Part shown: in pieces, positions 30,456 to 45,126 of the stretch | How the letters are laid out: each line of letters opens with the position of its first letter | Position numbering within the stretch: the stretch's first letter is position 1 | Assembly: GCA_965230955.1 (NCBI GenBank) | Contig: OZ246404.1 | Coordinates: forward strand, 988,291 to 1,052,290 | Direction of reading: 5' to 3' | Origin: an uncultured Candidatus Saccharibacteria bacterium | Lineage (GTDB): Bacteria > Patescibacteriota > CALEFQ01 | Length of the DNA stretch: 64,000 nucleotides | Notes under the pieces: generated by a model | Told to the model about the DNA's origin: nothing | Database searches by the model: none | The model's input: the letters and a program-made list of their open reading frames with translations, nothing else | Program-made: the position numbers and the translations under genes

Positions 30456-33248
30456 TTACGGAGTCGTATTGGCTTTTTTCGGAGTCGCGGTGGCCGTCGG
30501 GGTCGGGATCGGCGTCACTCTGGGAGTGGCGGACGGAACCGGCGTCTCGGGCTGATCCAACTCGGTCCCGGTCGGGACCGGACGCCCGGACTCTACCGGC
30601 TCGGTCTGTTTGGGAATCTCTTGTTCCACGGTGGTCGGCTTTTTGCCTTCCAGTTCATCTATCTTGCTTTGGATACTCTTATTACCCGGATTTAGCTCCA
30701 GGACTTTCTTGAACATTTCCAAGGCTTTGTCTTTTTCGTTGCGTTGCAGGTATATCAGCCCCATGCTATAGAGCGCATTGGAATATTTATCGTTGTTTTC
30801 CAGAATTCTTTGGAAGATCTTTTCGGCCTCATCGTATTTTTTGTCGTTGTAGAGAATCCGGCCCATCTCGTAGGCGGCGTCGATATTATCTGGCGCCAGC
30901 AACAGCGCAATCTGCATTTCTTTGAGCGCGCCGGCGCGGTCGCCTTTTTTGTCCAAGGTCTGCGCCAACGAGAGATGAGCATCGAAATAATTTTGTTTCA
31001 ATTCAATGCCGCGATTGAATTTTTCGATCGCCAAATTGAGCAATTGCTCCGCTTCACCGGTCTTTTCCGGAGAGATGGTCGCATTTTTGTCCGCTTCACC
31101 TTTTTCTTGGGCCTGTTTCAGGGCTTGCTCCGCTTCGAGGATTACATGATCGCTCTTGATGACATAGGCTTTGCCCTGCATCACGACCGGAATGGGATTA
31201 TTCGGATCCAGTTCAATCGCCTTGTTGTATGAATCGATGATCCATTCATCCGCCCCGCGCACATAGAGGCCAGCGTTTTGGTAAATCGAAGCCAGGAATT
31301 CCCAACTGGCGACATTGCTGGGCTCGACCGTCTGGGCGGTTCGAGCGGCATCGATACCGAGTTTGACGGCGTTGCTGACATAGTTGATGTCAGGAGTTTC
31401 TTTGACGGCTTCCTTGTTCGCCTGGGCCATGAAAGTCTGAGCGGCGCCGCGGTGGTAAACCGCGCGGGATTTATTCAGAGTGGCGGCGGCGACAAAATCA
31501 TTCAGTGCGCCTTCCAAATCTTCGCCTTTGGCCAGTTTTTCCTGGCCGCTACGGTAATTAATATCCGCCAAATACATCTTGCCGACAAAATAGAAAGCGA
31601 CAATACCACCGATCAGTACGACCAGGAAGATGAAAGAAGTGATCAAAGCGACTTGCGGCGAATTGGCGAAGGACCAGCGTTTTTCCTTGGCGGCAGATTC
31701 CGAAGTTTTCAGATTAAGGATGGCCGCGATCGTGAACGCCATCAAAATCCACCAGAGAAAACTGAGCGTGGTATTGAAAAAGTAGAAAAAGCTGATGACG
31801 GTCAGACCCACCCAGGCGGAAAAAGGAGCCAGGAGCAGCGCCCATTTGTTTTCATCTTTTTCCCGCATCAATTGTTTGATCGCTTCCCAGACAGTCAGCA
31901 CCATGATCAAAGCCAGCAAGCCGGTGCCAATGACACCGATAGTGGCCAGGGAGTTGAAAAATTGGGTGCCGGCTTTGTCGAATCTCATACTCCAGAGAAT
32001 GGTGTCGTTGAATTGAACCGGGCGGTATTGGGTGAAATCCTGGAAAAATGTTTCCGGACCACTACCGAGCAGAGGTTTTTGCCCTATCGTGGCTCGATCG
32101 ATATCCCAAGAAATCGGACGGCCGAGAGAAAGCTCAGTCGGTAAATTGAGCTTGAAGAGGCCGGCGGTCGGGATCAGCAGAAAAGCGACGCCGAGCGCCA
32201 AGAAAACCAGCGGTAGCCAAGCCACGGCTTTCTTTTCTTTCATTTGCGGCATCCGCGTCACCACGATCGCGAAAATCATGATCATGGACGCAATCAGAGT
32301 AATCCAGCCGATCGAAATGGAAAGCAAGAAAAGAATGACGACGCCGAGAATCGAGGCAACGACACAGATAATTTTCCAAATTTTGTTTTCCCGCAAAGCC
32401 AGAACCACAATCGCGCCCGCACCCGCCGCCAGGAAAATCGACAGCATGGTGATCGACCCGCCCACTAAATTGAAAGCCGGGGTTTTGGCGAATTCCCAGG
32501 GCCAGATAAATACGCCCAGGATCTGAAGCAGGCTGGTCACCGCGACAATCAGGTAGCCGACAACGAAAGTGCGCAGGTATTCCTGCAGAGCCGTGAGCGA
32601 TTTGACGTTATTGAGCGCCACAAAAAACAAAATAACCAGCGCGGCAATTTCCACGAAACCGCCGTTGAAACGACCGTAAAAACCGAAGAAACTGGAAAAC
32701 ATATCCAGTGAAAAAAGCGTCGACGCCAAATAAAGAGCGAGGTAAACCAAAATAGGAATGGTCACCAGTGTTTTGGCCAGCGTCACTTGCTTGGCAATGA
32801 TAATTTTTACCAGCCAGAGCAGGAAAGCCACCACCGCCAGAATATAGAGCGCCGTCTGCTTGCTCAATTCAAAAGCTTCAAAGGTCAGCGGCGTGAAAAG
32901 CAGAGGGATGATCAGAAGAGCGAGATGCAAACAGACTTTGATTCCGCGATCGCACCAATTGGTTTTGGGAGAATCAGCGGGATCTGGCGGGTTTGCTTTT
33001 TCCGAGCGAATGACCTTTGGCGCTTCCGGTCTCGGACTTGATTCCTGATTATCTTTCTTTTTGAACCAGGCGAAAAAATCCGCCTTGTTTTTATCTTTTT
33101 TGTTTTCGGCAGAAGGCGCGACCGGGGTATCGACCACCGGTGATTTGTCGGCCACCATATCCATGGAACCTTTGGGTCGATTGGAAACCGTCGCATCGCC
33201 GACGCGAACTTTGACCGATTCGCCTTCGGAATTGAGTCTTTTGGCCAT
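30456..33248 (-). CDS. Wzy_C/O-antigen-ligase-like (PglL/WaaL-type) polytopic membrane protein with C-terminal TPR repeats
   Basis: Low-complexity N-terminus, ~12 TM helices with an LLGSGPETFFQDF periplasmic loop (GxGxxxF, Wzy_C-like), then at least 6 TPR repeats and a Pro/Thr-rich tail. Confidence 0.5.
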   Translation of the reverse strand: MAKRLNSEGESVKVRVGDATVSNRPKGSMDMVADKSPVVDTPVAPSAENKKDKNKADFFAWFKKKDNQESSPRPEAPKVIRSEKANPPDPADSPKTNWCDRGIKVCLHLALLIIPLLFTPLTFEAFELSKQTALYILAVVAFLLWLVKIIIAKQVTLAKTLVTIPILVYLALYLASTLFSLDMFSSFFGFYGRFNGGFVEIAALVILFFVALNNVKSLTALQEYLRTFVVGYLIVAVTSLLQILGVFIWPWEFAKTPAFNLVGGSITMLSIFLAAGAGAIVVLALRENKIWKIICVVASILGVVILFLLSISIGWITLIASMIMIFAIVVTRMPQMKEKKAVAWLPLVFLALGVAFLLIPTAGLFKLNLPTELSLGRPISWDIDRATIGQKPLLGSGPETFFQDFTQYRPVQFNDTILWSMRFDKAGTQFFNSLATIGVIGTGLLALIMVLTVWEAIKQLMREKDENKWALLLAPFSAWVGLTVISFFYFFNTTLSFLWWILMAFTIAAILNLKTSESAAKEKRWSFANSPQVALITSFIFLVVLIGGIVAFYFVGKMYLADINYRSGQEKLAKGEDLEGALNDFVAAATLNKSRAVYHRGAAQTFMAQANKEAVKETPDINYVSNAVKLGIDAARTAQTVEPSNVASWEFLASIYQNAGLYVRGADEWIIDSYNKAIELDPNNPIPVVMQGKAYVIKSDHVILEAEQALKQAQEKGEADKNATISPEKTGEAEQLLNLAIEKFNRGIELKQNYFDAHLSLAQTLDKKGDRAGALKEMQIALLLAPDNIDAAYEMGRILYNDKKYDEAEKIFQRILENNDKYSNALYSMGLIYLQRNEKDKALEMFKKVLELNPGNKSIQSKIDELEGKKPTTVEQEIPKQTEPVESGRPVPTGTELDQPETPVPSATPRVTPIPTPTATATPKKANTTP

Positions 33249-33434
33249 ATTTGTGTGTTATTTTTAGACAAACATAAAACTTGGTCTTTGAATATAATAG
33301 CACATTATTGCAGTAAAGAACAAATCGATGCTTCCTATCTCGAAATATTCGCTCTTGACAATATTGTAAAAATAAGGTAATACTGCGCTATAACGTGCTC
33401 TTTGAAAAAATTCCATCATGATAGGAGGTCATTG

Positions 33435-35117
33435 ATGAAAAAGGAAAATATAGGGATAATTCTTAGTTTGATGTTTCTGATTGTAGCAATCTTGGCCCCT
33501 CCCTACATATGCGTCGATGATGCTATAATCACCGCTCGTTACGCCCTTAACTGGGTAAACGGGCACGGTCTTGTTTCTCGGCCGGGAGACCCTCGAGTGG
33601 AAGGGTTCTCCAATCCAACTTTGATATTAGCTACTGCCCTGTTCGCCAAAATTATGGGAGTGCAAACAATCTGGAACTGTATGAAAAGCATGCTGGTGAT
33701 CAACTTGATAGCCGCCGGACTAACACTTTGGTTGATTAGTCGGTGGGGACTGCGCGAAAAGCGTTCCTATTGGTGGCTTCCCGCGCTGGCGCTGATAATT
33801 TTTCCACCCTTCTTTCTGGAAACCAAAAACGGCATGGAAACAGCTCTGTACATGTTCTTCCTCACAGCGCTGGTGATGTGCCTGACCCGGCGTTTCTACC
33901 GCACAGCCGTCATCTGCGCCATCGCTCTGTCGTGGTCACGACCGGAAGGTGTAATCATTTCCGGACTGATCTGGCTGAGCGCCCTGGTTCCGATTGTGCG
34001 TCAATCCGGCTGGGCCTGTTATCGGCGCTGGAGCCTCATGATCCTACTGGGTATATTGTCTCTGTTTGCCTGGCGGGTCATGTACTTTCATCAGGGCATC
34101 ATAACAAGCATTTATGATCTCTTTCCGATCACCGTTCAAGCCAAAAGTCATACCGGCAATATCTGGAACACCGCTACTTTTGGGCTGGCCTACTTGTGGC
34201 AAGGCTTGATTCTATCCCCGATCTTGGGCCTATTGCTCTTGTTTACCGGGAGAAGAATCATCCGAGAAAAATCCTGGATTGAAGCGGTAGCGATATCAGC
34301 CCAACTGGCTTTTATCACCGGTGTCGGCGGAGACCTCCACTACTTCGGCCCATATCGTTTTCTGATGCCGATCTTCCCCTTTCTCTTCCGCTCTATTTCC
34401 CTGGACTGGATAGAGCTGAAAAAGCCCGCTCTCCGACGCGCTGTCTGTGGCTTGTGCTTGCTGACTGCCTTCACCCCATTTAGGCACAATGACCAACCGG
34501 AAATAAAAATTGGTTGGTGCGATCAAATAGAGTGGCTCCTCTATGAACCGGTGGAAACAATAGTTTGGTTTTTGTACTACCCCTTGGGGACACAGCAACA
34601 TCCGGAATTATTCATCGGCGAGGCACTGACCGAACTGGTCAAGCCGGAATACCGAGCGACCGTTACCGTGACTTGCAATCAAGCCGGCGCGTTTGCCACG
34701 ACCTGCCCCGGGAAATTTATCGATATTTTCGGGCTAGTATCACCGGAATACTCCTCTCTCCCATTCGGGCCGGAAAAAGAAGCCTACTGGCTCAAACATC
34801 CGACCGACATATTGGTGAATTTCGCCAGGAAAGACAAACAAGGCAATACTAGCGACTACCACTTTGTTAGAACCGAGGGACTAACAAAATTGGGATACTT
34901 CCCCGTCTGCCAAATCCAAATTCGATACTGCGACATAAACATAAGAAAAAAATTTATTGGAAGCGACATCGTCTATTTCCTGTGCTTCATCCGCGATCCG
35001 GCCATCATTGATTTTGACAAACTTCGGGAAAAAACAAAGTACCAAGTCTGGACAAATCACGATGACGAAACCGGAGTCATCAAGAAGGTTGTTCCGGTGA
35101 TTGAATTTCTGGAATAG
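33435..35117 (+). CDS. GT-C fold membrane glycosyltransferase (PMT/ArnT-like)
   Basis: AGGAGG RBS 5 nt before the ATG at 33435; first extracytoplasmic loop VDDAIITARYALNWV resembles the GT39/GT83 DD/DE...RYA catalytic loop; ~11 TM helices plus a C-terminal soluble domain. Confidence 0.45.
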   Translation: MKKENIGIILSLMFLIVAILAPPYICVDDAIITARYALNWVNGHGLVSRPGDPRVEGFSNPTLILATALFAKIMGVQTIWNCMKSMLVINLIAAGLTLWLISRWGLREKRSYWWLPALALIIFPPFFLETKNGMETALYMFFLTALVMCLTRRFYRTAVICAIALSWSRPEGVIISGLIWLSALVPIVRQSGWACYRRWSLMILLGILSLFAWRVMYFHQGIITSIYDLFPITVQAKSHTGNIWNTATFGLAYLWQGLILSPILGLLLLFTGRRIIREKSWIEAVAISAQLAFITGVGGDLHYFGPYRFLMPIFPFLFRSISLDWIELKKPALRRAVCGLCLLTAFTPFRHNDQPEIKIGWCDQIEWLLYEPVETIVWFLYYPLGTQQHPELFIGEALTELVKPEYRATVTVTCNQAGAFATTCPGKFIDIFGLVSPEYSSLPFGPEKEAYWLKHPTDILVNFARKDKQGNTSDYHFVRTEGLTKLGYFPVCQIQIRYCDINIRKKFIGSDIVYFLCFIRDPAIIDFDKLREKTKYQVWTNHDDETGVIKKVVPVIEFLE

Positions 35118-35150: not shown

Positions 35151-35185
35151 CCCGCGATTGAAAATTATCAATCGCGGGTTTTTAT
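35151..35185 (+). terminator. intrinsic terminator
   Basis: CCCGCGATTGAAAATTATCAATCGCGGG followed by a T-run. Confidence 0.6.
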
Positions 35186-35189: not shown

Positions 35190-35330
35190 CAAGTAACAGG
35201 TATCAGGTAACAAGTATCAGGGAACAAGTAACAAAAAACAACCATTACTCTTAATTTTGCTCATATGTAATGGCTGTTATTCCAATTTGTTCCCTGTTAC
35301 CTGATACCTGTTACTTGTTAATTGATCACC
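35190..35330. repeat. (GTAACAR)n/(GTATCAG)n inverted-repeat element
   Basis: ~45-bp arms around a 50-bp spacer carrying its own CCATTAC/GTAATGG hairpin; lies between convergent gene ends. Confidence 0.8.
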
Positions 35331-38300
35331 AGCCAGTTCACCGGCAAATCGACCGGAGCCGGTTTCCCGTCGTTAGTCGAAATCACAAATCCCTGCCCCG
35401 CCCGTTTCTCTTTTACTTTTACGCCGGTATTGGCGTCATTGGAACTTTCGATCGTCAGGAAAATTCGGCTCGCCGCCGTCACGGAATTATTCGGGACGAA
35501 AATTTCCGACTTGTTGCCGGGGAGTGTCACACTACCAATCGCTTTATTTTCGCCTTCTTGGATTTCGATATCGCCGGCCGTGACTTTCTGGAAGACGGCT
35601 TCACCGAGACTGTCGATATGCCAAGTGGCGTTATTCGACCAAAGTGAAGAAGCTTTGAGCGTGCCGGCGATATCAATATCTCCGCCAATGGTAACTTTAC
35701 CGGTAATACCCAGATCGCCGACGACTTGTCCGGCCTGGAGCGCACCACTTTGACCGGTGCCGGCAGTCAGAGTTTCCAATTGTTTTTTGATATTGGTAAT
35801 CTCTTCGTTCATATCCACGATGGCCGCTTCTTGTTCCTTGGCCGATTGAATCAGCGGAGTGACCAAATTTCCATAAGAAACCGTTTCGGGCCGGCCCTGG
35901 GCGTCATAGCTGACATACGCCGGATTGACTTGTTGGACTTCTTCGGCGATCAGACCTTCCTGCTTGGCGCCGGGATATTTTTTGTATTCAAATGATACCG
36001 GGCGTAATTGATACAGCCAGGCGATATTATTTATATTTTTCACATTGTTCTTGTAGCGCAGGGAAGAAGAAACATAACCGATTGTACCGGCATTATCGAC
36101 ATACAGATCGCGATTGGTCACGCCTACCGTATCGCTGTAAGTCCCGACGGAATTAATAGAATCTACCGTCGCCCCGGCATCGATGTATAGGCCGTATTCG
36201 ATATAGTCTTCCGGATCGAGCCAAGCGACATAATCCGTCCCGCTATTACTGGCTTCATCCACCGCGATCGAAAGTCCCATATCATTACCGGCCGCCGCCG
36301 CATTCACGTCAATCGAGACTCCGTAATCCGCTGCGGCTCCGCCGGTAGTGACCAAGAAAGTACCGCCCGTATTCCCCAACGCCGCGCCGGTCGCCAATCC
36401 CACAACGCCGATATTGTAGCCAAGGCTGGTTTGGTCTACCAACCCGCCGATACCATTGAAATGAACGGTGCTATTGTAAGTGATATTGCCCCCCTGTGTT
36501 CCCACAACGCCATAGAGATCACTATTGCTATAGGAATCCCCGGCGGTTCCCCCCACCCAGCCGTTAACACCGGCGATAAAATTCGTCCCGGAATCTGTCG
36601 TCACCGTCCCTTGATTATAGAAACCAACATTGAGGACATCCATCCCGGCAGTGACATCTTTTAGTGTATAGCCATCTTTGTTGCCCAAAATAAATTTACC
36701 GGCATGATTTTCGGCATAGACGCCATTATAATCAAGTGACGCATCTAATCCGAGATAACCGGACATACCCAAAGCTTCATCAGTATCATACGTAGTATGC
36801 ACTGAAGCCGTCAGCATAGCAGCTTTAACCCCGATAGTTGATTTACCATCATTAGCAGTCCCGGGATTTCCTTGTACGCCTATTTTGTTACCGGTCACTG
36901 CCGACAATACGTCGAAATAACCACCCCAATTTGATCCTGACCCACTTTCAGCTGATCCATAGATAGCAACATTTTGGTTAGTATTATTACTGGCCCGGCC
37001 ATACACACCGGTATTATATCCCGCCGCCCCGGCACCGTTGGAATTTCCGGTTATGCCGGCGATAGTATCGGCAGTCGCCAGAGTACTGGAATTGACCGCG
37101 TAAAGAGCGGACTGATAATCACCGGCATTATAAGTAGATAGAAAATCAAATTGTGCGCCGTATTGTAAATTACTCGCATGGTCATACAAATCCAGCTTAT
37201 AAGAAGGCGTCGTATCACCGATTCCAACATAGCCACCATCAAAGATACCGGCATAATTAGCCGTGCCACCCGAGGCTGTAGCATAAACAGCCGTATTACT
37301 GGTTCCGGCACCAGTAACTGAACTGTAAACACCATATTTGGTACCAGAAGCCCCCGTTTCAGAAATATTGATTCCCCGACCACTCGCACTGGCATCAGCA
37401 ATATTCATGCCATAGGCAGCATTGGCAGCAACACCAAATCCGCCGCGAGTAGCTCGTAAGTAGCCATCAGTGGTCTCGGCTGTGCCCACCCCTAGTCCAC
37501 CGGTCACATACGCATCACCCGAAACATATAATGGATAAGTGGCGTTATGAGCAATATTGACTCCAATATATCTAAAATCAGCGTCGCGGTCAGTATATAT
37601 AGTCGCCACGCCCCCCATGAACAAAGTATTAACGATATTCACATTACCACTGTCGAAATACCCGGCCCAGTTGGTCGTCCCGCCGGAAGCGGTGCCGTAG
37701 ATTCCATAATTTGTGGCATTCCCCGTGCCCGAACCATATACACCATAACTGGCGACAGAAGAGCGACTGGTCGCTCCATAAACACCATACTGGGTCGCCG
37801 CCCGATCAATTGAGGCATAAAGGCCATAATTAACTGTCGCCGAGCCCGGAACCGAAAGATAAATACCATAATTAGTCCCGGTCGCGCCGGTTTGTTCGAT
37901 ATTGATTCCGCGCCCGTCGGCACTGGCCTCGGCCACATTTATACCATAAGCGGCATTAGCGGCCACGCCAATCCCGGCTCGGCTCGCCCGCAAGTAACCA
38001 TCAGTAGCTTCAGCGGTGCCGACACCAAGCCCGCCGACAATAAAAGCATCGCCATCGGCATAAATTGATTGGGTCGTCCCGCCGATCACATATAGGCCGT
38101 ATTCGGCATTGGCTCCCGCCTGGAAAAATCCGGCATAATCGGTACCGGCGGCACCCGTGACATTAAAACGCCCGCCGTAATTGCTCCCCGTGGCGCCGGA
38201 AGACACACCGTAAACACCGTAGTTTTCCGTGCCGGTATTCGATGCTGTTCCGTAGACTCCATAATTATCCGTCGCAGCGGCTCCGGCGACGGAGAAATAT

Positions 38301-41300
38301 CCGCCGTAATTTGTACCGGCCGCTCCGGTGATCACTGACGCCAGGATGCCGTAATCATCTCCGCTACCGCCGGCATTGAGCTCGAAATATCCGCCGTAGT
38401 TGGCGTCAGTATTGCCGGCATTATCGATGTAGCCAAAAACACCGTAGTCGCTACTGTCGCCGGCCACCCCGATGATACTGAAATACCCGCCATAGTTACC
38501 TGAAACTGACGTGCCGGGATCGTTCAATAACGCATAGACGCCATAATCATTCAATGTTCCTCCGCCATCGACAGTAAATCGACCGCCCGAATTTGAATTC
38601 GCTCCTTGCGCCGCCCCCGCCACTCCGACCGATTCATCCCCGCCGTTTGGCAAAGCCACGTTTCCATAAATACCATAGGCGGTGAGACTTTGTCCGTTGG
38701 CGTTAAAAGTATTCGTCGCGTAGATCGAGTAATTGATAGAGGCTTCAAAAGCACCGGTACCACTGAAAGAATTATAGAAACCGTATTGACTGACTTCATG
38801 TGATCCGGAAACCGTTGTCGCCATATACATACCGCGCGCGCCATTGACCGTCGCTCCCAAGGTCGCTTCTCCGTGAAAAGCTTCGTTGTAATTGGTCGCC
38901 CCGCTCGCCGAAGCGTAAATAGCATAATTATTATAAGTATTGGTCGATCCGTCCGCCACGGAATAAATCCCATACGCCGTCGGGACAGCAGTGCCATCGG
39001 CACCGGTAGTTCTATTTCGAACATACAAACCAGTCGTCGTCGCCGTGGCTCCACTCGCGACACTTCCGCCGAAAGAATCGTAAATTCCGTATTGAGTCAA
39101 TCCGTTATTAATTCCATCGTTGGAAGTGGTACTGAAATAATAGCCTTGGACATCACCCAATGTCGCCGACAGCGCGGCGCTTCCGTGGAAAGCTTCATTA
39201 ATTCCGGCGGTACTCCCGGAAACAGTCGTGTGAATCCCGTAATTAGCCGTACCGTTGCCGCTGACTGTAAATTGCCCGCCATAATTATATACGGCATTCG
39301 CCACCACGGCGTTAACACCGTAATTAGTCGACTCACCGGCAACTGCGTTTGAAATATTTAAATACACGCCATTGTTCACCGTCGATGCGCCGGTCAAACT
39401 GATATAATTACCGTAAATTGTACCCGTCGCCCCGGTCATCGCCGTGTAGACGCCGTAACCGTTGTTCGACGCGTTGGCGATATTGAGCGAGCGTCCCGCC
39501 GTCGGCGTCGTGCCGATACTCATGATCCCGGAAGCGACCGAAACATTGTTAGAGTAAGTAGAATTTGGATAGAGGTAATCGCTCCCGACATCGTCCAGCC
39601 ACAAACCGGTTCCGCCGGAAGCCAGCGAGATCAAAGCGTCTATCACGCCTCGATCCGCCGCTCCAAACGCCGCTTCAAACGCCGCGGTGTTGTCGGTCAG
39701 GGCAAACGGAATCGCGGTCGTGATTAGCGCGTCTTGGAAATATATTTTGTCGGTGGAAAGTAATGTTATGTCATTCGTCGCTCCGGTGGAGCCGATAGTC
39801 AGTCCCGCCGTGGCGGTGATATTTGTCCCGACGCCGGTGATATTTTGTGAACCCATGGTCAAGGCGGCGTTGGTAATATCGAGACCGTTTTCCGCGTCAA
39901 CATTGCCGGTGAAATTCGCCGTGCCGTCAACGTACAATTCATCGCTCGTCGCTCCGCTGGCGATATAGACGCCGTATGTCGTACCGGAGAAATATCCGCC
40001 GTAATTTGTCGTCGCGCCGCTCGCCGTCGAATACAAACCGTAGTTCGTCGTCGACGCGCCCGTCGCTTCCAGGTACCCGCCATAATTGGCGTCACCTGTT
40101 CCGGTCACGCTCAGCACTCCGCCGTAATTAGTACCGGTGCCGGCATTATTGTTTCGAACTCTTATGCCCCAATCCACTCCCGCTGTACCGGTTCCAATAC
40201 TGACATCTAATCCGGTATTTGTATCACTTCCACTTCCGTCAGTCAGAAAAACAGTGGCTCCGTAATTATTACCACCGCCGGCTGTAGAAATACCCAAGAT
40301 AGCTCCATAATCATCGCCAGCATTACCGACCTGGACGCGTCCGTAAATTCCGACATCACTGCCGGCGCCGCCCGTCCCAACATCAAAGTAACCGGCATAA
40401 TTAGACGTAGCTCCAGTGGCCACTATATATGATCCGTAATTAGTGGTAGCTGCGCCGGACACGCTCACTTCCATGCCATAATTTGTCGTCGACGCGCCGG
40501 TGGCTGAAATATATTGACCATGAATTGTACCAGTCGCTCCGGTCATTGCCGTGTAGACGCCGTAACCGTTGTTCGACGCGTTGGCGATATTGAGCGAGCG
40601 TCCCGCCGTCGGCGTCGTGCCGATACTCATGATCCCGGAAGCGACCGAAACATTGTTAGAGTAAGTAGAATTTGGATAGAGGTAATCGCTCCCGACATCG
40701 TCCAGCCACAAACCGGTTCCGCCGGAAGCCAGCGAGATCAAAGCGTCTATCACGCCTCGATCCGCCGCTCCAAACGCCGCTTCAAACGCCGCGGTGTTGT
40801 CGGTCAGGGCAAACGGAATCGCGGTCGTGATTAGCGCGTCTTGGAAATATATTTTGTCGGTGGAAAGTAATGTTATGTCATTCGTCGCTCCGGTGGAGCC
40901 GATAGTCAGTCCCGCCGTGGCGGTGATATTTGTCCCGACGCCGGTGATATTTTGTGAACCCATGGTCAAGGCGGCGTTGGTAATATCGAGACCGTTTTCC
41001 GCGTCAACATTGCCGGTGAAATTCGCCGTGCCGTCAACGTACAATTCATCGCTCGTCGCTCCGCTGGCGATATAGACGCCGTATGTCGTACCGGAGAAAT
41101 ATCCGCCGTAATTTGTCGTCGCGCCGCTCGCCGTCGAATACAAACCGTAGTTCGTCGTCGACGCGCCACTGACTGAAATATAATTTCCATAAATAGTTCC
41201 GACCGTCCCGGTCATCGCCGTATAGACACCGTAACCGTTGTCGGCCGCGTTGGCGATATTGAGAGAGCGAGCACTGCTCGGCGCCACGCCGATTCCCACC

Positions 41301-42619
41301 ACCCCGCCGTTGGCATAAATATTTCCGCCGGTAAATTCCCAGCGGTCATCGGTGGTATAAGTGACTGATCCGGTCGCATCATTGGAGGCATACATATTGA
41401 GGATCGCATTGGTCGCCGCGCCGGCCGAGCCCTCACCGATCCGCACCGTGTTTAAATTTTCATCAACGGAAAAAGGCGCGACCAAACTATTCGCGCCGAT
41501 AGCAAAATCATCGGTCAGGGTATAGGGATGAATAATTATCCCCGTTTGCTCCCAGAGAAAAGGCTGATAAGAAATATCCGTGCCGTCGGACATCAAAACG
41601 GTATTGGCTAATCCGGCGCCGAGCCGGGTCGTGGTATTGGCGGCATTGCGGTAAATAATATCGCCGCGGGTTGTCATCGGATCCAGGAAACCGGAACTTT
41701 GGTTTTGCCAAGTGACATTGCCGCTGCCGTCGGTAATCAAAATCTGATTATTCGATCCCCGGGTGGTGGGAAAAGTATACGACGTCACACCAGTGCCAAA
41801 AGTGACTGCCCCAATCAAGTTTGTCGTATTGGAAACCGAAAGCGTGCTGGATAAATCAGTCGCGCCGGTCACGCCCAGGGTTGAAGACAAGGTAGCCGCT
41901 CCGGTCACGATGAGAGTGGAAGATAACGTGGTCGCGCCGGTAACGCCCAAAGTGGAGTCGAATGAAACCGCCCCGCTGACATGTAATCTCCCGTTCGGGA
42001 TCGAGACATCTTGCGATACCCCGGCTTTGGGATGTAAATTTCCGCTGCTATCTTCCCACATCCCGGCCGCCGGTATCGCCGTAGTATTTAAATAATTTAG
42101 CGCGTCGAGAATACCTCTTTCCGCCACCGGGAAAGAATCAATATTCGTATCAGTCAACGAGCCCGGCACGCCATAGACTCTTTCGGTATTCAGCGAATAA
42201 CCAACTCCGCCGATCCGACGCCGAGGCGACATTTCACCGTCGCCATTTACTTCGATCCCCAGATAATATACTCCGCTGTTGAAATCCAGATTGATCGCAT
42301 TGAGTGAGCCGAGATTAACATTGAAAACTCCGTCTTCCACCGTCACTTTGTTTCCGCCGATGTGATTCTCCGACCACATGGCTACCCCGCCTGAAGAAAC
42401 GTTGTAAATCCGAAAATTCATGTCATATACCCCATCGGTAACATTGGTACCGTCGGGATTGGTCAGCCGCCCCTGGAAATTAAACTCTTTAACATAGCCG
42501 GCGCGGACGTTTACCGGGGTATCAAAAAAGCCTACCAGTGAAAAAATCACCGCCAGAATAGCTAAAACTAGGGCTATAACGCCAAAAACTTGGCTTTTTG
42601 CCTTTTTTGTTTGAGCCAT
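35318..42619 (-). CDS. giant (2433 aa) membrane-anchored Thr/Ser/Gly/Asn/Tyr-rich surface protein with C-terminal tail-fibre-type intramolecular chaperone (peptidase S74) domain
   Basis: N-terminal signal-anchor helix; long NYGGYF/GATGT-type low-complexity beta repeats; C-terminus SSSLRYKNNVKNI...WLYQLRPVSFEYK...GLIAEEVQQVNPAYV matches the endosialidase/tail-fibre auto-cleaving chaperone domain. Confidence 0.7.
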   Translation of the reverse strand: MAQTKKAKSQVFGVIALVLAILAVIFSLVGFFDTPVNVRAGYVKEFNFQGRLTNPDGTNVTDGVYDMNFRIYNVSSGGVAMWSENHIGGNKVTVEDGVFNVNLGSLNAINLDFNSGVYYLGIEVNGDGEMSPRRRIGGVGYSLNTERVYGVPGSLTDTNIDSFPVAERGILDALNYLNTTAIPAAGMWEDSSGNLHPKAGVSQDVSIPNGRLHVSGAVSFDSTLGVTGATTLSSTLIVTGAATLSSTLGVTGATDLSSTLSVSNTTNLIGAVTFGTGVTSYTFPTTRGSNNQILITDGSGNVTWQNQSSGFLDPMTTRGDIIYRNAANTTTRLGAGLANTVLMSDGTDISYQPFLWEQTGIIIHPYTLTDDFAIGANSLVAPFSVDENLNTVRIGEGSAGAATNAILNMYASNDATGSVTYTTDDRWEFTGGNIYANGGVVGIGVAPSSARSLNIANAADNGYGVYTAMTGTVGTIYGNYISVSGASTTNYGLYSTASGATTNYGGYFSGTTYGVYIASGATSDELYVDGTANFTGNVDAENGLDITNAALTMGSQNITGVGTNITATAGLTIGSTGATNDITLLSTDKIYFQDALITTAIPFALTDNTAAFEAAFGAADRGVIDALISLASGGTGLWLDDVGSDYLYPNSTYSNNVSVASGIMSIGTTPTAGRSLNIANASNNGYGVYTAMTGATGTIHGQYISATGASTTNYGMEVSVSGAATTNYGSYIVATGATSNYAGYFDVGTGGAGSDVGIYGRVQVGNAGDDYGAILGISTAGGGNNYGATVFLTDGSGSDTNTGLDVSIGTGTAGVDWGIRVRNNNAGTGTNYGGVLSVTGTGDANYGGYLEATGASTTNYGLYSTASGATTNYGGYFSGTTYGVYIASGATSDELYVDGTANFTGNVDAENGLDITNAALTMGSQNITGVGTNITATAGLTIGSTGATNDITLLSTDKIYFQDALITTAIPFALTDNTAAFEAAFGAADRGVIDALISLASGGTGLWLDDVGSDYLYPNSTYSNNVSVASGIMSIGTTPTAGRSLNIANASNNGYGVYTAMTGATGTIYGNYISLTGASTVNNGVYLNISNAVAGESTNYGVNAVVANAVYNYGGQFTVSGNGTANYGIHTTVSGSTAGINEAFHGSAALSATLGDVQGYYFSTTSNDGINNGLTQYGIYDSFGGSVASGATATTTGLYVRNRTTGADGTAVPTAYGIYSVADGSTNTYNNYAIYASASGATNYNEAFHGEATLGATVNGARGMYMATTVSGSHEVSQYGFYNSFSGTGAFEASINYSIYATNTFNANGQSLTAYGIYGNVALPNGGDESVGVAGAAQGANSNSGGRFTVDGGGTLNDYGVYALLNDPGTSVSGNYGGYFSIIGVAGDSSDYGVFGYIDNAGNTDANYGGYFELNAGGSGDDYGILASVITGAAGTNYGGYFSVAGAAATDNYGVYGTASNTGTENYGVYGVSSGATGSNYGGRFNVTGAAGTDYAGFFQAGANAEYGLYVIGGTTQSIYADGDAFIVGGLGVGTAEATDGYLRASRAGIGVAANAAYGINVAEASADGRGINIEQTGATGTNYGIYLSVPGSATVNYGLYASIDRAATQYGVYGATSRSSVASYGVYGSGTGNATNYGIYGTASGGTTNWAGYFDSGNVNIVNTLFMGGVATIYTDRDADFRYIGVNIAHNATYPLYVSGDAYVTGGLGVGTAETTDGYLRATRGGFGVAANAAYGMNIADASASGRGINISETGASGTKYGVYSSVTGAGTSNTAVYATASGGTANYAGIFDGGYVGIGDTTPSYKLDLYDHASNLQYGAQFDFLSTYNAGDYQSALYAVNSSTLATADTIAGITGNSNGAGAAGYNTGVYGRASNNTNQNVAIYGSAESGSGSNWGGYFDVLSAVTGNKIGVQGNPGTANDGKSTIGVKAAMLTASVHTTYDTDEALGMSGYLGLDASLDYNGVYAENHAGKFILGNKDGYTLKDVTAGMDVLNVGFYNQGTVTTDSGTNFIAGVNGWVGGTAGDSYSNSDLYGVVGTQGGNITYNSTVHFNGIGGLVDQTSLGYNIGVVGLATGAALGNTGGTFLVTTGGAAADYGVSIDVNAAAAGNDMGLSIAVDEASNSGTDYVAWLDPEDYIEYGLYIDAGATVDSINSVGTYSDTVGVTNRDLYVDNAGTIGYVSSSLRYKNNVKNINNIAWLYQLRPVSFEYKKYPGAKQEGLIAEEVQQVNPAYVSYDAQGRPETVSYGNLVTPLIQSAKEQEAAIVDMNEEITNIKKQLETLTAGTGQSGALQAGQVVGDLGITGKVTIGGDIDIAGTLKASSLWSNNATWHIDSLGEAVFQKVTAGDIEIQEGENKAIGSVTLPGNKSEIFVPNNSVTAASRIFLTIESSNDANTGVKVKEKRAGQGFVISTNDGKPAPVDLPVNWLVIN
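39441..40060. repeat. perfect 620-bp direct repeat, copy 1 (inside the giant gene)
   Basis: Identical to 40548..41167 (offset 1107 bp); the tracked ORFs 39687..39968 and 40794..41075 are identical 93-aa products. Confidence 0.9.
40548..41167. repeat. perfect 620-bp direct repeat, copy 2
   Basis: See copy 1; flanks diverge at 39434/40541 and 40061/41168. Confidence 0.9.
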
Positions 42620-42679: not shown

Positions 42680-42711
42680 CAAAAAACCGCCCAGATGAAA
42701 AGGGGGGCGGA
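42680..42711 (-). terminator. intrinsic terminator after the 774-aa gene
   Basis: CCGCCCAGATGAAAAGGGGGGCGG with a U-run on the minus strand. Confidence 0.5.
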
Positions 42712-42724
42712 GGTGTGGACAACA

Positions 42725-42800
42725 ATCAAGTAACAAGTATCAGGTAACAAATTGGAAAAACAACAATTTTGTTACTTGTTCCCTGTTACTTGTTACCTGG
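42725..42800. repeat. (GTAACAR)n inverted-repeat element
   Basis: Between the 774-aa gene and the giant gene. Confidence 0.8.
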
Positions 42801-42801
42801 T

Positions 42802-45126
42802 TTAAGAATCCGGGCCGCTTAAATCCTCTAAATTACGGTCTTTCTTCTCCTCCACTTTTTTGATCGTTTCCTGCATACCGGGAGTTTCAGGAGGAGGCGG
42901 CGGCGCAGCGTTTGGGGATGTCGGGGCATAGGGTAGCCCGGTGGCAGGATCCAGCGGAACATTGAAACGCACTACCCCATCGCGCTTAACGTTGAAATCT
43001 TCACCGCGATAGCGATTGAATCCTTTTTCAATTTTGGAAGGGAAAGCATACTGCTCGCGATCAACCGTCAGACGATAAGTTTCCGGCCCGACCAAGAAAC
43101 CAAATCGTCCGTGGCGATCGGTCACTTGCGTTTCCAGTAAATCATTGTACCGTCGATTAAATAATCTGACGACCGCCAGTCCCACCGGTTTCCCGGTCTT
43201 GGCATCATAAACCATGCCCCAGGGCTTGCTCTTTTGACCCTGAACGACCCGTCCGAAAAATATAAATAAAACGATATGAAGAATAAGGAAGATCATAGTA
43301 TAAATTGACGGGCTGATCCAAAGACACACCGCCGCGATAACCGGGCCGAGTATGGCCAAGATCAAATTGACCCGACGATGCAAGTAACGCAAGACCACAT
43401 TGCGATTGGTCATCGCCATATCTTGCTTGAGCATCGGATCTAAAGGCACGCTGACGGTAATAACAGTTTTACCGGAAGCGATTTCAATCGGCTCGCCGAA
43501 ATAAAGATCGTCATAGCCGGCATCGTGAGTTTTGCCCCGCATTTTTAGCGAGGGGAAGGCGAAGTTCGGCTTGGTGACCGTGATGCGGAATTTTCCTTCC
43601 TTGGTCAAAAAGGTAAATCGTCCCTGGCGATCAGTCACGCGAGTGCTGACCAATTTTCCCGTCTGCGCATCAAGCAAGCGTACCAGCGCCAGATCAACCG
43701 GAACTTTGGAAAGCGCATTATACACCACGCCCCAACAACGGCGGCGCCGTCCGGCAAAGAAGAGAAAAGGCTCGGTAAAAAGATACCAGAAAGACAGCAG
43801 GGCGGTACCGACATTGGCCATACCAGCCGCGGTCAGCAAGTTGGCGATCGCCAAAGCGGTCAGACCGGGAACGACAACCGACTGATTGATCAATTGAGTA
43901 ACCGGATTTTCTCTGAATAATTCGATATCCCGGAGCAAATCTCGCAGGGCGGTAATTATCAGTTCCGGAATCGTCAGGGGCGGATTCACCGGCGGGACAT
44001 CAATTCCCGGAATGGTGATCGTGGCCGGCAACGATAAATCGGTCGAAATATTATTACAGTTTCGCGCCATCACGTTATAAACATAAGTCTGGCCGGCCAC
44101 CAAACCATAGTGCGCCCGGCTTAACGCCGTCGACCAGTAAGAAGCGCCGCTGACCGATCCGTCGGGCTGTAAAAAAGCGCCGTTGACCAAAACCGCAAAT
44201 TCCGTCCCGGCCGGATTGCCGTTGGCCGCGATGGAAATTGTCGCCGTATATGTTCCGTCATCGGCGGCGACATAAGAGACACCGGGCTGACCCGGGACGT
44301 TCGCCAACGTACACCGCGTCAAGGTCGCCTCGGCGTTTTCTACGCCGCAAATATTTCGCTGTTTGGAATGCCAGGTATAAGCGGTGTTAAAATTTAATCC
44401 CGTGTCGCGCCAGCTGTTATCCCCGCTCTGCCAACCGGATTCGTTTACAACGCCGCGCCGGAAAAAATATCCGCTCAGCTCTATGCTATGCCGCGGAAAA
44501 ATCGGGACGGAGAGATCCATGTAATCCACTCCCGGACTGGCAAAAAGTCCCCGCGTTCCGACCAGAGTACAGCCGGAAGCAAAGCCGGAAGGGATACTGT
44601 TTCCGAAAGGATTAAAAGCCAAAACTTGTTCGGTGTATTTTTGGTTTTCATCCAGTCCGGTTTGGGTAATGGAGCTGATATTGGCTTGATTGACCACCTC
44701 AACGACGGTAGCCGAATCATCTTCCAGCAGGAAACCTTCTTCATCGGCCGACCGATCGGTAAAATTCCATTTTATAGCAGACGCGGACAAGCCTTCCGGT
44801 ATCCCGATTTCCGGCTTATTCGGCGGTTTGAAATAGAGATAACCGGCTTTGACGATATAATTGGGCGAGGTAAATTTTCCCGTGACAAAATAATTCAGCG
44901 CCTCATCGACCGAAAAATCTCCGGAATCAAGCTGACCGCCCGATTCATCGATATCTTCAACTTTCATCCGGTAATTCGGACTGGAATAACCGACGGCACC
45001 GGCTCGATCATTACTCCAAACAAAACCCAGGCTGACCGAAAGCAGGCAAATTAAAAAACCAATGCGCCACCAGCGGGCGAATGGATTTTTAATTCGCACC
45101 AGATTGTTTTTTTTATTTACCAACAC
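42802..45126 (-). CDS. membrane protein with two carboxypeptidase-regulatory-like (prealbumin-fold) domains and a Pro-rich C-terminus
   Basis: GTG start; N-terminal signal/TM; large extracytoplasmic domain; two repeats of GxVYxAxTGKPVxLAxVRL...TQVTDRxGRFxFL...YxxTVxKxxYAFPS, each following TM helices; PPPPPETP tail. Confidence 0.5.
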   Translation of the reverse strand: MLVNKKNNLVRIKNPFARWWRIGFLICLLSVSLGFVWSNDRAGAVGYSSPNYRMKVEDIDESGGQLDSGDFSVDEALNYFVTGKFTSPNYIVKAGYLYFKPPNKPEIGIPEGLSASAIKWNFTDRSADEEGFLLEDDSATVVEVVNQANISSITQTGLDENQKYTEQVLAFNPFGNSIPSGFASGCTLVGTRGLFASPGVDYMDLSVPIFPRHSIELSGYFFRRGVVNESGWQSGDNSWRDTGLNFNTAYTWHSKQRNICGVENAEATLTRCTLANVPGQPGVSYVAADDGTYTATISIAANGNPAGTEFAVLVNGAFLQPDGSVSGASYWSTALSRAHYGLVAGQTYVYNVMARNCNNISTDLSLPATITIPGIDVPPVNPPLTIPELIITALRDLLRDIELFRENPVTQLINQSVVVPGLTALAIANLLTAAGMANVGTALLSFWYLFTEPFLFFAGRRRRCWGVVYNALSKVPVDLALVRLLDAQTGKLVSTRVTDRQGRFTFLTKEGKFRITVTKPNFAFPSLKMRGKTHDAGYDDLYFGEPIEIASGKTVITVSVPLDPMLKQDMAMTNRNVVLRYLHRRVNLILAILGPVIAAVCLWISPSIYTMIFLILHIVLFIFFGRVVQGQKSKPWGMVYDAKTGKPVGLAVVRLFNRRYNDLLETQVTDRHGRFGFLVGPETYRLTVDREQYAFPSKIEKGFNRYRGEDFNVKRDGVVRFNVPLDPATGLPYAPTSPNAAPPPPPETPGMQETIKKVEEKKDRNLEDLSGPDS

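What the first reader, a model, noticed from the sequence alone, without database searches (positions are those of the whole stretch)
30456..45126. Candidate O-linked surface-glycoprotein locus: Wzy_C/PglL-like protein, GT-C glycosyltransferase, giant tail-fibre-like protein and a CarbopepD membrane partner
Four consecutive genes form a coherent but non-canonical set. A polytopic Wzy_C (O-antigen ligase/PglL-type) protein carries a TPR C-terminus. A GT-C glycosyltransferase has a PMT/ArnT-like DD..RYA catalytic loop. A 2433-aa membrane-anchored protein of Thr/Ser/Gly/Asn/Tyr low-complexity repeats ends in a phage tail-fibre/endosialidase-type intramolecular chaperone (S74) domain. Directly upstream on the same strand is a 774-aa membrane protein with two carboxypeptidase-regulatory-like beta-sandwich domains. 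PglL/PilO-type Wzy_C enzymes and PMT-type GT-C enzymes are the two known routes to protein O-glycosylation on Ser/Thr, and the giant protein is an obvious Ser/Thr-rich substrate. A tail-fibre-like adhesin that is O-glycosylated, self-processed by its C-terminal chaperone and paired with a membrane partner would be an undescribed host- or surface-attachment apparatus. A PilB ATPase gene lies 2.8 kb further on.
Basis: partly seen in the sequence, partly recalled or inferred. Interest (0 to 1): 0.8.

Follow-up and report, generated by a model that had tools for sequence, protein, structure and literature searches.

The report
Patescibacterial surface fibre and membrane partner
An ultrasmall (Patescibacteria) bacterium encodes a giant phage-tail-fibre-like surface fibre, related at its base to the prey-grabbing fibres of Bdellovibrio, next to a membrane protein that accompanies such fibres across the phylum; a dedicated sugar-attachment system is only partly supported.

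Summary
All four ORFs exist at the stated coordinates, but several details are wrong. The "GT-C" gene lies on the opposite strand. It is AftB-like rather than PMT/ArnT-like, has its own promoter-like site and terminator, and is absent from a syntenic relative (L003) and from all 79 related loci, so it is a lineage-specific insertion. Wzy_C support for the first protein is sub-threshold (23 bits against a cut-off of 31.7), though 3 of 12 orthologues pass. The S74 domain is real but internal, with 197 residues following it.

The conserved core is the 774-aa membrane protein plus the giant. In 40 of 68 evaluable Patescibacteria loci, a homologue of the membrane protein is followed directly by a 1,100 to over 3,200-aa protein. 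That protein's N-terminal domain matches the N-domain of Bdellovibrio "mosaic adhesive trimer" (MAT) fibres (33 of 42 hit NF053851, all sub-threshold). The Wzy_C-TPR gene joins this pair in 13 loci, in three different gene orders.

Best reading: a Sec-exported, probably trimeric mosaic adhesin fibre with a membrane partner, likely used for host or surface recognition. O-glycosylation of the fibre by the Wzy_C-TPR protein is possible but unproven. No flippase, polyprenyl-phosphate-sugar synthase or glycan-assembly genes lie in the window. I rate it a new variant of a known kind, of moderate interest.

The parts
42802..45126 (-). P4: 774-aa membrane protein. It has an N-terminal signal/anchor (aa 20-38), three FN3 domains (aa ~100-375), a TM region (aa ~408-457), CarboxypepD_reg 1 (aa 466-564), a TM hairpin (aa 586-628), CarboxypepD_reg 2 (aa 637-727) and a Pro-rich tail. 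It is the conserved partner of the fibre gene.
   Evidence: Pfam. AF2 model (pLDDT 75). Foldseek hits to fibronectin FN3 tandems, E 1e-13. Hydropathy. The C-terminal module is conserved across Patescibacteria, with 4,183 50%-identity clusters at E<=1e-30. Promoter-like site at 45193-45165, after a terminator-like hairpin at 45223-45200.
35318..42619 (-). P3: 2433-aa Gly/Ala/Thr/Ser/Asn/Tyr-rich, Cys-free fibre protein of the MAT (mosaic adhesive trimer) type.
   Evidence: MAT_N HMM built from 42 homologues hits only this ORF in the window. Promoter-like site at 42701-42673.
42050..42499 (-). MAT_N-like conserved N-terminal domain of P3 (aa ~41-190). It directly follows the signal peptide (aa 1-40, nt 42500-42619) and starts with the motif NFQGRL.
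   Evidence: NCBIfam NF053851 Bdello_MAT_N at E 3.8e-6 for P3, and in 33 of 42 homologues, best 2.9e-13, all below the 60-bit cut-off. Alignment A3.
40523..41167 (-). First copy of an exact 215-aa internal duplication (aa 485-699).
   Evidence: 100% protein and 99.5% DNA identity to the second copy, offset 369 aa. repeat family D3.
39416..40060 (-). Second copy of the 215-aa duplication (aa 854-1068).
35912..36067 (-). Peptidase_S74 intramolecular-chaperone/autoprotease core (aa 2185-2236). The putative Ser2185/Lys2190 dyad lies in 'SSLRYK'.
   Evidence: Pfam E 1.2e-7, above gathering score. Motif position. PHROG tail-fibre C-terminal ends match aa 2043-2281.
35321..35764 (-). 148-aa C-terminal domain lying after S74 (aa 2286-2433, ending WLVIN). 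The closest relatives share it, although they lack S74.
   Evidence: phmmer (L009 E 5e-63, L003 E 2e-32). No family assignment.
30456..33248 (-). P1: 930-aa polytopic (about 13 TM) Wzy_C-superfamily protein with a predicted extracytoplasmic TPR domain and a Pro/Thr-rich tail. The Wzy_C-like region is aa 298-445 (nt 31914-32357); the TPR domain is aa ~560-870 (nt 30639-31571).
   Evidence: (3 of 12 orthologues hit Wzy_C, best 1.6e-10). Found on the same strand within 10 kb of P4 homologues in 13 loci, in three gene orders.
33435..35117 (+). P2: AftB-family GT-C glycosyltransferase. It is a lineage-specific insertion and an independent transcription unit (promoter-like site 33355-33384, terminator 35151-35178).
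   Evidence: Profile against PDB 9dlf, E 2e-24, with AftB D62/R221/R372 aligned to invariant D17/R157/R296 (residue roles from PMC12041299). AF2 pTM 0.76. Foldseek hits AftB, ArnT and OST. Absent from L003 and from all P4 loci. Signals.
35197..35322 (.). Long inverted repeat between the convergent 3' ends of P2 and P3; its outer arm overlaps the last bases of P3. It is probably a bidirectional terminator.
   Evidence: Read directly from the sequence.

Best explanation
The locus encodes a cell-surface fibre system of a Patescibacteria (CPR) bacterium. Its conserved core is the P4-P3 gene pair.

P3 is exported by Sec (N-terminal signal peptide). By analogy with MAT and phage fibres it should assemble into a long trimeric fibre. 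Its architecture is mosaic: a conserved MAT-type N-terminal domain, a hypervariable repeat-rich shaft (including a very recent 215-aa duplication), an S74 chaperone/autoprotease module and a C-terminal domain.

The N-domain is inferred to hold the fibre at the cell surface. P4 is the best candidate for its dock or assembly partner. P4 has three FN3 domains outside, a conserved TM module, and two CarboxypepD_reg beta-sandwiches that the positive-inside rule places in the cytoplasm. The distal part of P3 is inferred to bind a host-cell or substrate surface, as Bdellovibrio MAT fibres bind prey glycans.

P1 (Wzy_C superfamily with an external TPR domain) is a frequent third member. It probably transfers an undecaprenyl-linked glycan onto a component of this surface assembly or onto the wall around it. 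P2 (AftB-like GT-C) is a recently inserted, separately transcribed passenger, not part of the conserved system.

Shown here: domain identities, gene conservation and gene orders. Inferred: trimerisation, S74 cleavage, docking to P4, the adhesive role, and any glycosylation.
For: - P4 homologues are followed directly by a MAT_N-bearing protein of 1,096 to over 3,228 aa in 40 of 68 evaluable loci from several Patescibacteria lineages labelled Falkow-, Buchanan-, Magasanik-, Uhr- and Saccharibacteria; the median gap is 217 nt.
- The N-domain is homologous to Bdello_MAT_N in 33 of 42 sequences. The MAT family is defined by a conserved ~130-aa beta-rich domain right after the signal peptide, with S74 or alternative tips, and the surface partner of its N-domain is unknown (PMC10769870).
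- S74 scores above the Pfam threshold and the Ser/Lys motif is present. Phage tail-fibre C-terminal ends match the region.
- Fibre ends are conserved and the middle is scrambled between close relatives, whose fibres are 1,637, 2,433 and 3,026 aa.
- In L003 the arrangement is operon-like, P4-fibre-P1 with gaps of 93 and 3 nt.
- P1 clusters with P4 in 13 loci in three gene orders, always on the same strand.
- P2 is absent from L003 and from all P4 loci, and has its own promoter-like site and terminator.
- Flanking genes are housekeeping (PolA, HolA, TsaE, UppP), so this is not a prophage.
Against: - All MAT_N matches fall below NCBIfam's 60-bit cut-off.
- Trimerisation and surface display were not modelled or measured.
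- The part of P4 conserved across the phylum is its TM/CarboxypepD_reg module. If that module is cytoplasmic, as the positive-inside rule suggests, it cannot itself contact an extracellular N-domain. Docking would then have to use the variable ectodomain or short loops.
- About 40% of evaluable P4 loci lack a detectable MAT_N neighbour, and P4-like proteins are very numerous, so P4 may be a general surface-protein anchor.
- S74 is internal. Its cleavage would discard the C-terminal domain that the S74-less relatives retain.
- In the closest relative, L009, no P1 follows the fibre gene.
Confidence: 0.6

Rival explanations
1. One reading: a dedicated protein O-glycosylation apparatus. P1 acts as a PglL/PilO/WsaB-type O-oligosaccharyltransferase, and/or P2 as a protein-directed GT-C. 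They decorate Ser/Thr/Tyr of the giant fibre, which then self-processes and is held by P4.
For: - P1 belongs to the Wzy_C superfamily and has an external TPR domain, a typical protein-binding module (topology inferred).
- P1 recurs next to the P4/fibre pair in shuffled orders. In L003 its start lies 3 nt after the fibre stop.
- P3 is 19.5% Ser+Thr and 6.7% Tyr.
- UppP, which recycles the lipid carrier, lies 0.6 kb beyond P4.
- A P2 homologue directly follows a MAT_N/H-lectin fibre gene in the distant locus L002.
- GT-C enzymes related to arabinosyltransferases can glycosylate proteins; TfpW acts on pilins (abstract of bioRxiv 10.1101/2020.04.19.049825).
Against: - No PglL_A, Wzy_C_2, PMT or PMT_2 hit was found.
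- Wzy_C cannot distinguish a ligase, a polymerase or an O-OTase.
- P2 is AftB-like, and AftB's acceptor is a polysaccharide (PMC12041299).
- P2 is absent from all relatives' loci, and only 1 of 85 loci of its family has a fibre neighbour.
- P2 is separately transcribed.
- No flippase, initiating transferase or polyprenyl-P-sugar synthase lies in the window.
- In four Magasanikbacteria loci P1 sits near P4 with no MAT fibre detected.
- L009 has a fibre without an adjacent P1.
Confidence: 0.2
2. P1 is a cell-envelope glycopolymer ligase or polymerase (WaaL/Wzy-like) acting on wall- or lipid-linked polysaccharide. P4-family proteins are generic anchored surface proteins. Their proximity to the fibre reflects a shared 'cell-surface island', not a specific complex.
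For: - The P4 family is very large, and its ectodomains vary from about 500 to over 3,000 aa.
- P1 sits near P4 without a fibre in some loci, together with other small secreted proteins.
- P2-family neighbours include sugar-nucleotide and Wzx-type genes elsewhere.
Against: - A MAT_N gene lies immediately downstream in 59% of evaluable loci, with short gaps and on the same strand. That is far more than a loose island would give.
- The L003 arrangement is operon-like.
Confidence: 0.15
3. The giant gene is a remnant of a prophage or tailocin tail fibre with no cellular role.
For: S74 and PHROG tail-fibre matches at aa 2043-2281.
Against: - There are no other phage genes. The flanks are housekeeping and syntenic in relatives.
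- The protein has a Sec signal peptide and a MAT_N domain. The ORF is an intact 7.3 kb.
- The P4-fibre arrangement recurs across several Patescibacteria lineages.
Confidence: 0.03

Closest known systems
Bdellovibrio bacteriovorus MAT (mosaic adhesive trimer) fibre proteins (Caulton et al. 2024, PMC10769870; NCBIfam NF053851 Bdello_MAT_N)
   Same: A signal peptide is followed at once by a conserved beta-rich N-domain of about 130-150 aa that is detectably homologous. Then comes a long fibre with a variable, swappable distal part. Some members carry an S74 chaperone/protease and others do not. The organism's lifestyle depends on contacting other cells.
   Different: - All scores fall below the family cut-off.
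- The host is a monoderm Patescibacterium, not a diderm predator.
- The fibres are much longer (1.1 to over 3.2 kaa, against about 1 kaa).
- S74 is internal and followed by another domain.
- The fibre gene is paired with a conserved polytopic membrane protein; I found no mention of such a partner in the parts of the MAT paper I searched.
- A Wzy_C-TPR gene is often adjacent.
Phage tailspike/tail-fibre proteins with a C-terminal intramolecular chaperone (Peptidase_S74: K1F endosialidase, T5 pb1)
   Same: S74 domain with a Ser/Lys motif, and PHROG matches to tail-fibre C-terminal ends.
   Different: There is no phage context. The protein has a Sec signal peptide. S74 is not terminal. Cleavage was not tested.
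Mycobacterial AftB (GT-C, class GT-CA; PDB 9dlf/9dlh; PMC12041299)
   Same: For P2: shared N-terminal module, a DD motif with the catalytic Asp, two essential Arg residues, and the same fold.
   Different: Identity is about 19-25%. The C-terminal soluble domain differs. The donor and acceptor are unknown. No decaprenyl-phospho-arabinose pathway genes were seen in the window.
Wzy_C-superfamily enzymes (WaaL O-antigen ligase; PglL/PilO and, from my own knowledge, the S-layer O-OTases WsaB/WsfB of monoderm Bacillales)
   Same: For P1: about 13 TM helices with a large external loop matching the Wzy_C profile end to end.
   Different: P1 itself scores below threshold. There was no PDB sequence-profile hit and no PglL-specific domains. 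P1 is fused to a large external TPR domain. Its substrate is unknown.

Membership tests
MAT (mosaic adhesive trimer) fibre family | A conserved beta-rich N-terminal domain of about 130 aa immediately after the signal peptide | tested here: inconclusive
   P3 aa 43-105 matches NF053851 at E 3.8e-6 (26.8 bits, cut-off 60). 33 of 42 Patescibacterial homologues match, best 2.9e-13, all sub-threshold. Position after the signal peptide is confirmed. Homology is likely; subfamily membership is not met.
MAT (mosaic adhesive trimer) fibre family | Variable C-terminal tip, either S74 or another domain | tested here: met
   S74 occurs in P3, L019 and L084. It is absent from L003 and L009, which share the C-terminal 148-aa domain. 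Other fibres have other tails.
MAT (mosaic adhesive trimer) fibre family | Trimeric fibre displayed on the cell surface and binding prey or host ligands | not testable with these tools
   No multimer prediction and no experiment were possible. Only a Sec signal and the absence of further TM segments were shown.
Peptidase_S74 (intramolecular chaperone autoprotease) | Pfam PF13884 above the gathering score, with the Ser...Lys catalytic motif | tested here: met
   32.4 bits against 22. 'S2185-S-L-R-Y-K2190' fits the spacing of the SDxxxK motif, with Asp replaced by Ser (motif from PMC10769870).
Peptidase_S74 (intramolecular chaperone autoprotease) | Located at the extreme C-terminus and released by self-cleavage | tested here: not met
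   197 residues, including a conserved 148-aa domain, follow the Pfam match. Cleavage itself is not testable here.
Wzy_C / O-antigen ligase superfamily (PF04932) | Profile match above the gathering score | tested here: inconclusive
   P1 scores 23.3 bits against 31.7 (E 6e-5, full-length over the profile). 3 of 12 orthologues match at E<=0.01, best 1.6e-10. A PDB profile search found nothing.
PglL/PilO-type O-oligosaccharyltransferase | PglL-specific domains (PglL_A, Wzy_C_2) or demonstrated protein acceptor activity | tested here: not met
   No such Pfam hits at E<=10 for the membrane part. Activity is not testable.
GT-C glycosyltransferase (class GT-CA) | GT-C fold with the catalytic Asp at the tip of the first juxtamembrane helix | tested here: met
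   AF2 pTM 0.76. Foldseek hits AftB (6e-7), ArnT (1e-4) and STT3/PglB. The DD motif aligns to AftB D61-D62.
AftB family | Sequence-profile homology plus conservation of D62, R221 and R372 | tested here: met
   E 2.1e-24 over profile positions 8-330. The invariant residues D17, R157 and R296 align to them. Arabinofuranosyl specificity was not tested.
PMT / ArnT (PF02366, PF13231) protein O-mannosyl or lipid A transferases | Family HMM match; closest structural neighbour | tested here: not met
   No PMT or PMT_2 hit. The PMT structure Pmt4 ranks 45 in Foldseek with E 0.68. ArnT is second to AftB only at fold level, with 11% identity.
CarboxypepD_reg (PF13620) domain proteins | Profile match above the gathering score | tested here: met
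   55.1 bits against 32.3, in two stretches. The AF2 model shows beta-sandwiches at aa 466-564 and 637-727.

The most novel reading that the evidence does not exclude
The P4-family membrane protein is the unidentified cell-surface dock or assembly platform for MAT-type fibres. Together with a Wzy_C-TPR enzyme that glycosylates or covalently links the fibre, it forms a phylum-wide, hypervariable host-recognition organelle that sets host range in episymbiotic Patescibacteria. This would be evolutionarily tied to the prey-recognition fibres of predatory bacteria.
Probability: 0.15. Interest if true: 0.8.

Novelty: new variant of a known kind. Interest (0 to 1): 0.55.

Why it matters
How ultrasmall Patescibacteria recognise and hold on to their hosts is largely unknown beyond type IV pili. 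This locus points to a fibre gene that varies strongly between close relatives and recurs across several lineages of the phylum. The fibre shares its base domain with Bdellovibrio prey-binding fibres. It always sits with one membrane-protein family and often with a Wzy_C-TPR enzyme, which gives concrete candidates for host-range determinants. It also suggests a candidate for the unidentified surface anchor of MAT-type fibres. Finally, it shows that the apparent "two-route glycosylation" signature was partly an accident of a recent gene insertion.

Tried and rejected
- PDB sequence searches with single P1, P3 and P4 sequences, and with the P1 membrane profile, found nothing useful. The TPR domain swamped the full-length profile.
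- Rfam on 26-47 kb gave no family.
- Viral-contig and first metagenome scans with alignments A3 and A1 failed because no stretch was conserved enough.
- A profile search for MAT_N homologues in the 5.8-billion-protein set returned mostly short unnamed fragments. They were uninformative beyond showing the domain in Patescibacteria and in a few entries named as Anaerolineales, Polarisedimenticolia or Pyrinomonadaceae.
- I tested whether the P2 family is generally linked to fibres or beta-helix proteins. Early loci looked suggestive (L001, L002, L090), but 85 loci showed heterogeneous neighbours and only one MAT_N neighbour. Rejected.
- I checked the lead that the essential Southlakia genes SEML1_0890/0891 (FN3 plus VCBS) are the same module. 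Their sizes (195 and 565 aa) and folds (lysozyme-like, propeller) differ. Rejected.
- The Foldseek search with the P4 model returned only generic FN3 tandems and nothing for the membrane module.
- The prophage reading was rejected on context.
Full report
**Observation**

The four ORFs are present at the given coordinates:
- P1: 30456-33248(-), 930 aa
- P2: 33402-35117(+), 571 aa
- P3: 35318-42619(-), 2433 aa
- P4: 42802-45126(-), 774 aa

P2 is on the opposite strand. It is divergent from P1 and convergent with P3.

Flanking genes are housekeeping. On one side lie HolA, a cupin and PolA. On the other lie TsaE, UppP/BacA, a DHH protein, PilB (47931-49613, + strand), a TPR protein and TsaD. Further out are Mur ligase, FemAB, RuvA, UvrB, TruB and several PAS histidine kinases.

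All homologues of P4 come from Patescibacteria MAGs. Identical copies of P2 and P4 lie on a 1,136,458-bp NCBI contig. The window is therefore chromosomal DNA of a CPR bacterium, not a mobile element.

**Domain checks**

*P1.* The C-terminal TPR domain is strong. Wzy_C is seen only when the membrane part is scanned alone (E 6e-5, 23.3 bits against a gathering score of 31.7). That match covers the whole profile (2-148/149).
- Three of 12 orthologues from related loci match Wzy_C, best 1.6e-10.
- A profile of the membrane part finds no solved structure by sequence.
- Hydropathy gives about 13 TM helices, with a large loop at aa 360-434. From the alternation of Lys/Arg-rich loops I infer that the TPR domain and the Pro/Thr tail lie outside the cell.

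*P2.* It has no Pfam or NCBIfam hit and very few homologues (9). Even so, the evidence for an AftB-family GT-C enzyme is good:
- A profile of those homologues matches mycobacterial AftB (PDB 9dlf) at E 2.1e-24.
- The alignment places AftB's catalytic D62 (DD motif) and the essential R221 and R372 on the invariant P2-family residues D17, R157 and R296. The roles of those AftB residues come from PMC12041299.
- An AF2 model (pTM 0.76) has AftB as its best Foldseek hit. ArnT, STT3/PglB/AglB, ALG9, Emb, AftD and AftA follow. A PMT structure appears only at rank 45 with E 0.68.

P2 is thus a GT-C enzyme of the AftB family, not the PMT/ArnT type.

*P3.* It has one N-terminal hydrophobic segment followed by V-R-A|G and no other TM segment. 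It contains no Cys. Its composition is Gly 15.7, Ala 11.5, Thr 11.1, Ser 8.4, Asn 8.3 and Tyr 6.7%.
- Peptidase_S74 scores above threshold at aa 2185-2236.
- 'S2185-S-L-R-Y-K2190' fits the Ser...Lys spacing of the SDxxxK motif quoted for S74 proteins (PMC10769870).
- PHROG tail-fibre families match aa 2043-2281 with the C-terminal ends of their profiles.
- P3 nevertheless continues for about 150 further residues after that match.
- A 215-aa stretch (aa 485-699) is repeated exactly at aa 854-1068, with 99.5% DNA identity. That is either a very recent duplication or an assembly artefact.

*P4.* It has two CarboxypepD_reg domains. The AF2 model (pLDDT 75) shows:
- three tandem FN3 domains at aa 100-375 (Foldseek: fibronectin tandems, E 1e-13)
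- helices at aa 386-457
- beta-sandwich 1
- a TM hairpin
- beta-sandwich 2
- a disordered Pro-rich tail

Arg/Lys clusters flank every TM segment on the side of the beta-sandwiches (RRRR459-462, RYLHRR, GRVVQGQKSK). From this I infer that the CarboxypepD_reg domains are cytoplasmic and the FN3 domains external.

**Comparative genomics**

This changes the picture.

*Close relatives keep three genes, not four.* Relative L003 (P4 52% identical) has the order TsaD-TPR-PilB-DHH-BacA-TsaE-P4-giant (1,637 aa)-P1-PolA. The gaps are 93 and 3 nt, and there is no P2. Loci L004 to L007 show the same P4-giant pairing.

*The P4-fibre pair is widespread.* A scan of GTDB species representatives with a P4 alignment returned 79 loci.
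- In 40 of 68 loci with enough downstream sequence, the next gene on the same strand carries a homologue of P3's first ~150 mature residues. The median gap is 217 nt.
- Complete fibres are 1,096-3,026 aa. Truncated ones exceed 3,228 aa.

*The N-domain resembles MAT fibres.* It starts with the motif (I/L)NYQG(K/R)L right after the signal peptide. It matches NCBIfam NF053851 'Bdello_MAT_N' in 33 of 42 sequences, best 2.9e-13, all below the 60-bit cut-off. MAT fibres of Bdellovibrio have these features (PMC10769870):
- They are surface-exposed trimeric adhesins.
- They have exactly this layout: signal peptide, invariant ~130-aa N-domain, and variable tips with or without S74.
- The surface partner of their N-domain is unknown.

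*P1 is a frequent third member.* P1-like genes lie within 10 kb of P4 homologues in 13 loci, always on the same strand, in three orders:
- P4-fibre-P1: L003, L011, L025, L065, L080
- P4-x-P1-fibre: L010, L015
- P1-x-P4(-fibre): L079, L082, and L036, L037, L063, L072 without a detected fibre

*P2 is not part of the conserved set.* P2-like genes occur in none of these loci.

*The fibre is mosaic.*
- N- and C-terminal ends are conserved between the window and L009 (79% and 78% DNA identity), while the middle is scrambled.
- S74 is found only in the fibres of the window, L019 and L084, and it is internal in all three.
- L003 and L009 lack S74 but keep the C-terminal 148-aa domain.
- In L009 the fibre gene is followed directly by a 148-nt element. 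In the window that element lies downstream of P1 (30236-30378). So neither P1 nor P2 sits there in L009.

**The P2 family**

P2 has a promoter-like site (TTGACA-18-AATACT, 33355-33384), a GGAGG-ATG start at 33435 and a clean intrinsic terminator at 35151-35178.

The first few homologous loci hinted at a link with secreted beta-helix or fibre proteins:
- L002: a MAT_N + H-lectin fibre gene directly upstream
- L001: a 1,680-aa beta-helix protein plus a transposase fragment
- L090: a beta-helix/FN3 protein
- L087: two tandem GT-C paralogues

A metagenome scan added 80 loci. Across all 85, MAT_N appears only in L002, and P1 and P4 never appear. The neighbours are heterogeneous, with only a few sugar-nucleotide or Wzx-type genes.

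I conclude that P2 is a recent insertion between the fibre gene and P1, with no demonstrated link to the fibre.

**Mechanism**

*Best reading (confidence about 0.6).* A Sec-exported mosaic fibre is retained through its MAT-type N-domain. P4 is the candidate dock or assembly partner. The variable distal parts contact a host or other surface. P1 is a frequently associated Wzy_C-type transferase whose external TPR domain may select a protein partner.

The weak points are:
- The MAT_N scores are sub-threshold.
- The conserved half of P4 is probably cytoplasmic.
- The P4 family is very large: 4,183 50%-identity clusters at E<=1e-30.
- About 40% of evaluable P4 loci have no detectable fibre neighbour.
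- S74 cleavage would remove a C-terminal domain that the S74-less relatives keep. I cannot explain this.

No glycan-assembly, flippase or lipid-sugar synthase genes lie in the 64 kb. No PglL- or PMT-specific signatures were found.

**Novelty and verdict**

My full-text searches found no paper that describes MAT-type fibres, or a P4-type partner, in Patescibacteria. The MAT paper itself states that other bacteria carry such fibres with other tips.

The finding is therefore a new variant of a known kind: MAT or tail-fibre-like adhesins, here giant, in monoderm episymbionts, with a conserved membrane partner and a frequent Wzy_C-TPR neighbour. It is not a categorically new apparatus, and it is not the four-gene glycosylation system proposed. 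Interest is 0.55.

Noticed in passing
window 35912-36067 (S74) and 35321-35764 (C-terminal domain); L003:9621-14573, L009:1258-10335: The S74 chaperone/protease is internal. The 148-aa domain behind it (ending WLVIN) is conserved in the two closest relatives, whose fibres have no S74 at all. If S74 cleaves, P3 would shed a domain that its relatives keep on the mature fibre. I have no explanation.
   Followed up: partly
window 39416-40060 and 40523-41167: A 645-nt segment inside the giant gene is duplicated at 99.5% DNA identity (215 aa identical), 1,107 nt apart. This is either a very recent in-frame duplication or a repeat-collapse/expansion artefact of assembly.
   Followed up: partly
window 30236-30378 (between P1 and polA); L009:10475-10619: A 148-nt intergenic element with a perfect GCCTGCCGGCAGGC-type palindrome is 83% identical to sequence lying directly after the fibre gene in relative L009. 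That is better conserved than the neighbouring coding DNA. There is no Rfam match, and its function is unknown.
   Followed up: partly
L036:5522-8003, L037:5894-8360, L063:5715-8189, L082:6718-8298, L079:5474-6127: In these loci (L036 is labelled only 'Patescibacteria group', L079 and L082 carry 'Gammaproteobacteria' MAG labels, and L037 and L063 are labelled Magasanikbacteria), two or three small secreted proteins lie between the Wzy_C-TPR gene and the P4 homologue. They are about 215 aa starting 'MSSxNY...', about 292 aa with 'FSISPLK...', and about 320 aa. The 215-aa protein weakly resembles the N-terminal aa 24-100 of P4 (E 2e-4), which hints at a larger surface-assembly cluster.
   Followed up: partly
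L082:11254-21111: Two MAT_N-bearing giant fibre genes (1,756 and over 1,500 aa) lie in tandem downstream of one P4 homologue.
   Followed up: no
L087:5071-10580; P0008: Distant P2-family GT-C genes occur as tandem paralogues. The upstream one has a weak PMT_2 hit plus TPR, and another member (P0008) is fused to TPR repeats. Some members of this AftB-like family may therefore be protein-directed, like the eukaryotic TMTC enzymes (that comparison is from my own knowledge).
   Followed up: no
L001:6648-7019: In the only close relative of P2 (77% identity), a 123-aa ORF with a weak, sub-threshold match to a transposase DNA-binding domain (Tnp_DNA_bind, E 3.7e-4, 20.6 bits against 24) sits immediately upstream of the GT-C gene. 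The locus context is entirely different, which is consistent with mobility of this gene.
   Followed up: no
window 557-11213 and 54273-56306: There is an unusually rich set of sensor histidine kinases for a genome whose P2/P4-bearing contig is about 1.1 Mb: a CHASE4 protein, HisKA_7TM with PAS, and two multi-PAS/GAF kinases of 766 and 1,073 aa, plus an SBP_bac_3-PAS kinase.
   Followed up: no
window 56389-59325: A 978-aa ORF combines a G3P_acyltransf (PlsY-like) N-terminal domain with PPDK_N and PEP-utilizers domains. This is an unusual fusion.
   Followed up: no
L012, L015, L017-L019 and about 25 other loci: Many contigs that carry typical Patescibacteria P4/fibre genes are titled 'uncultured Gammaproteobacteria bacterium' in their records. 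These are probably mislabelled MAG taxonomy.
   Followed up: no
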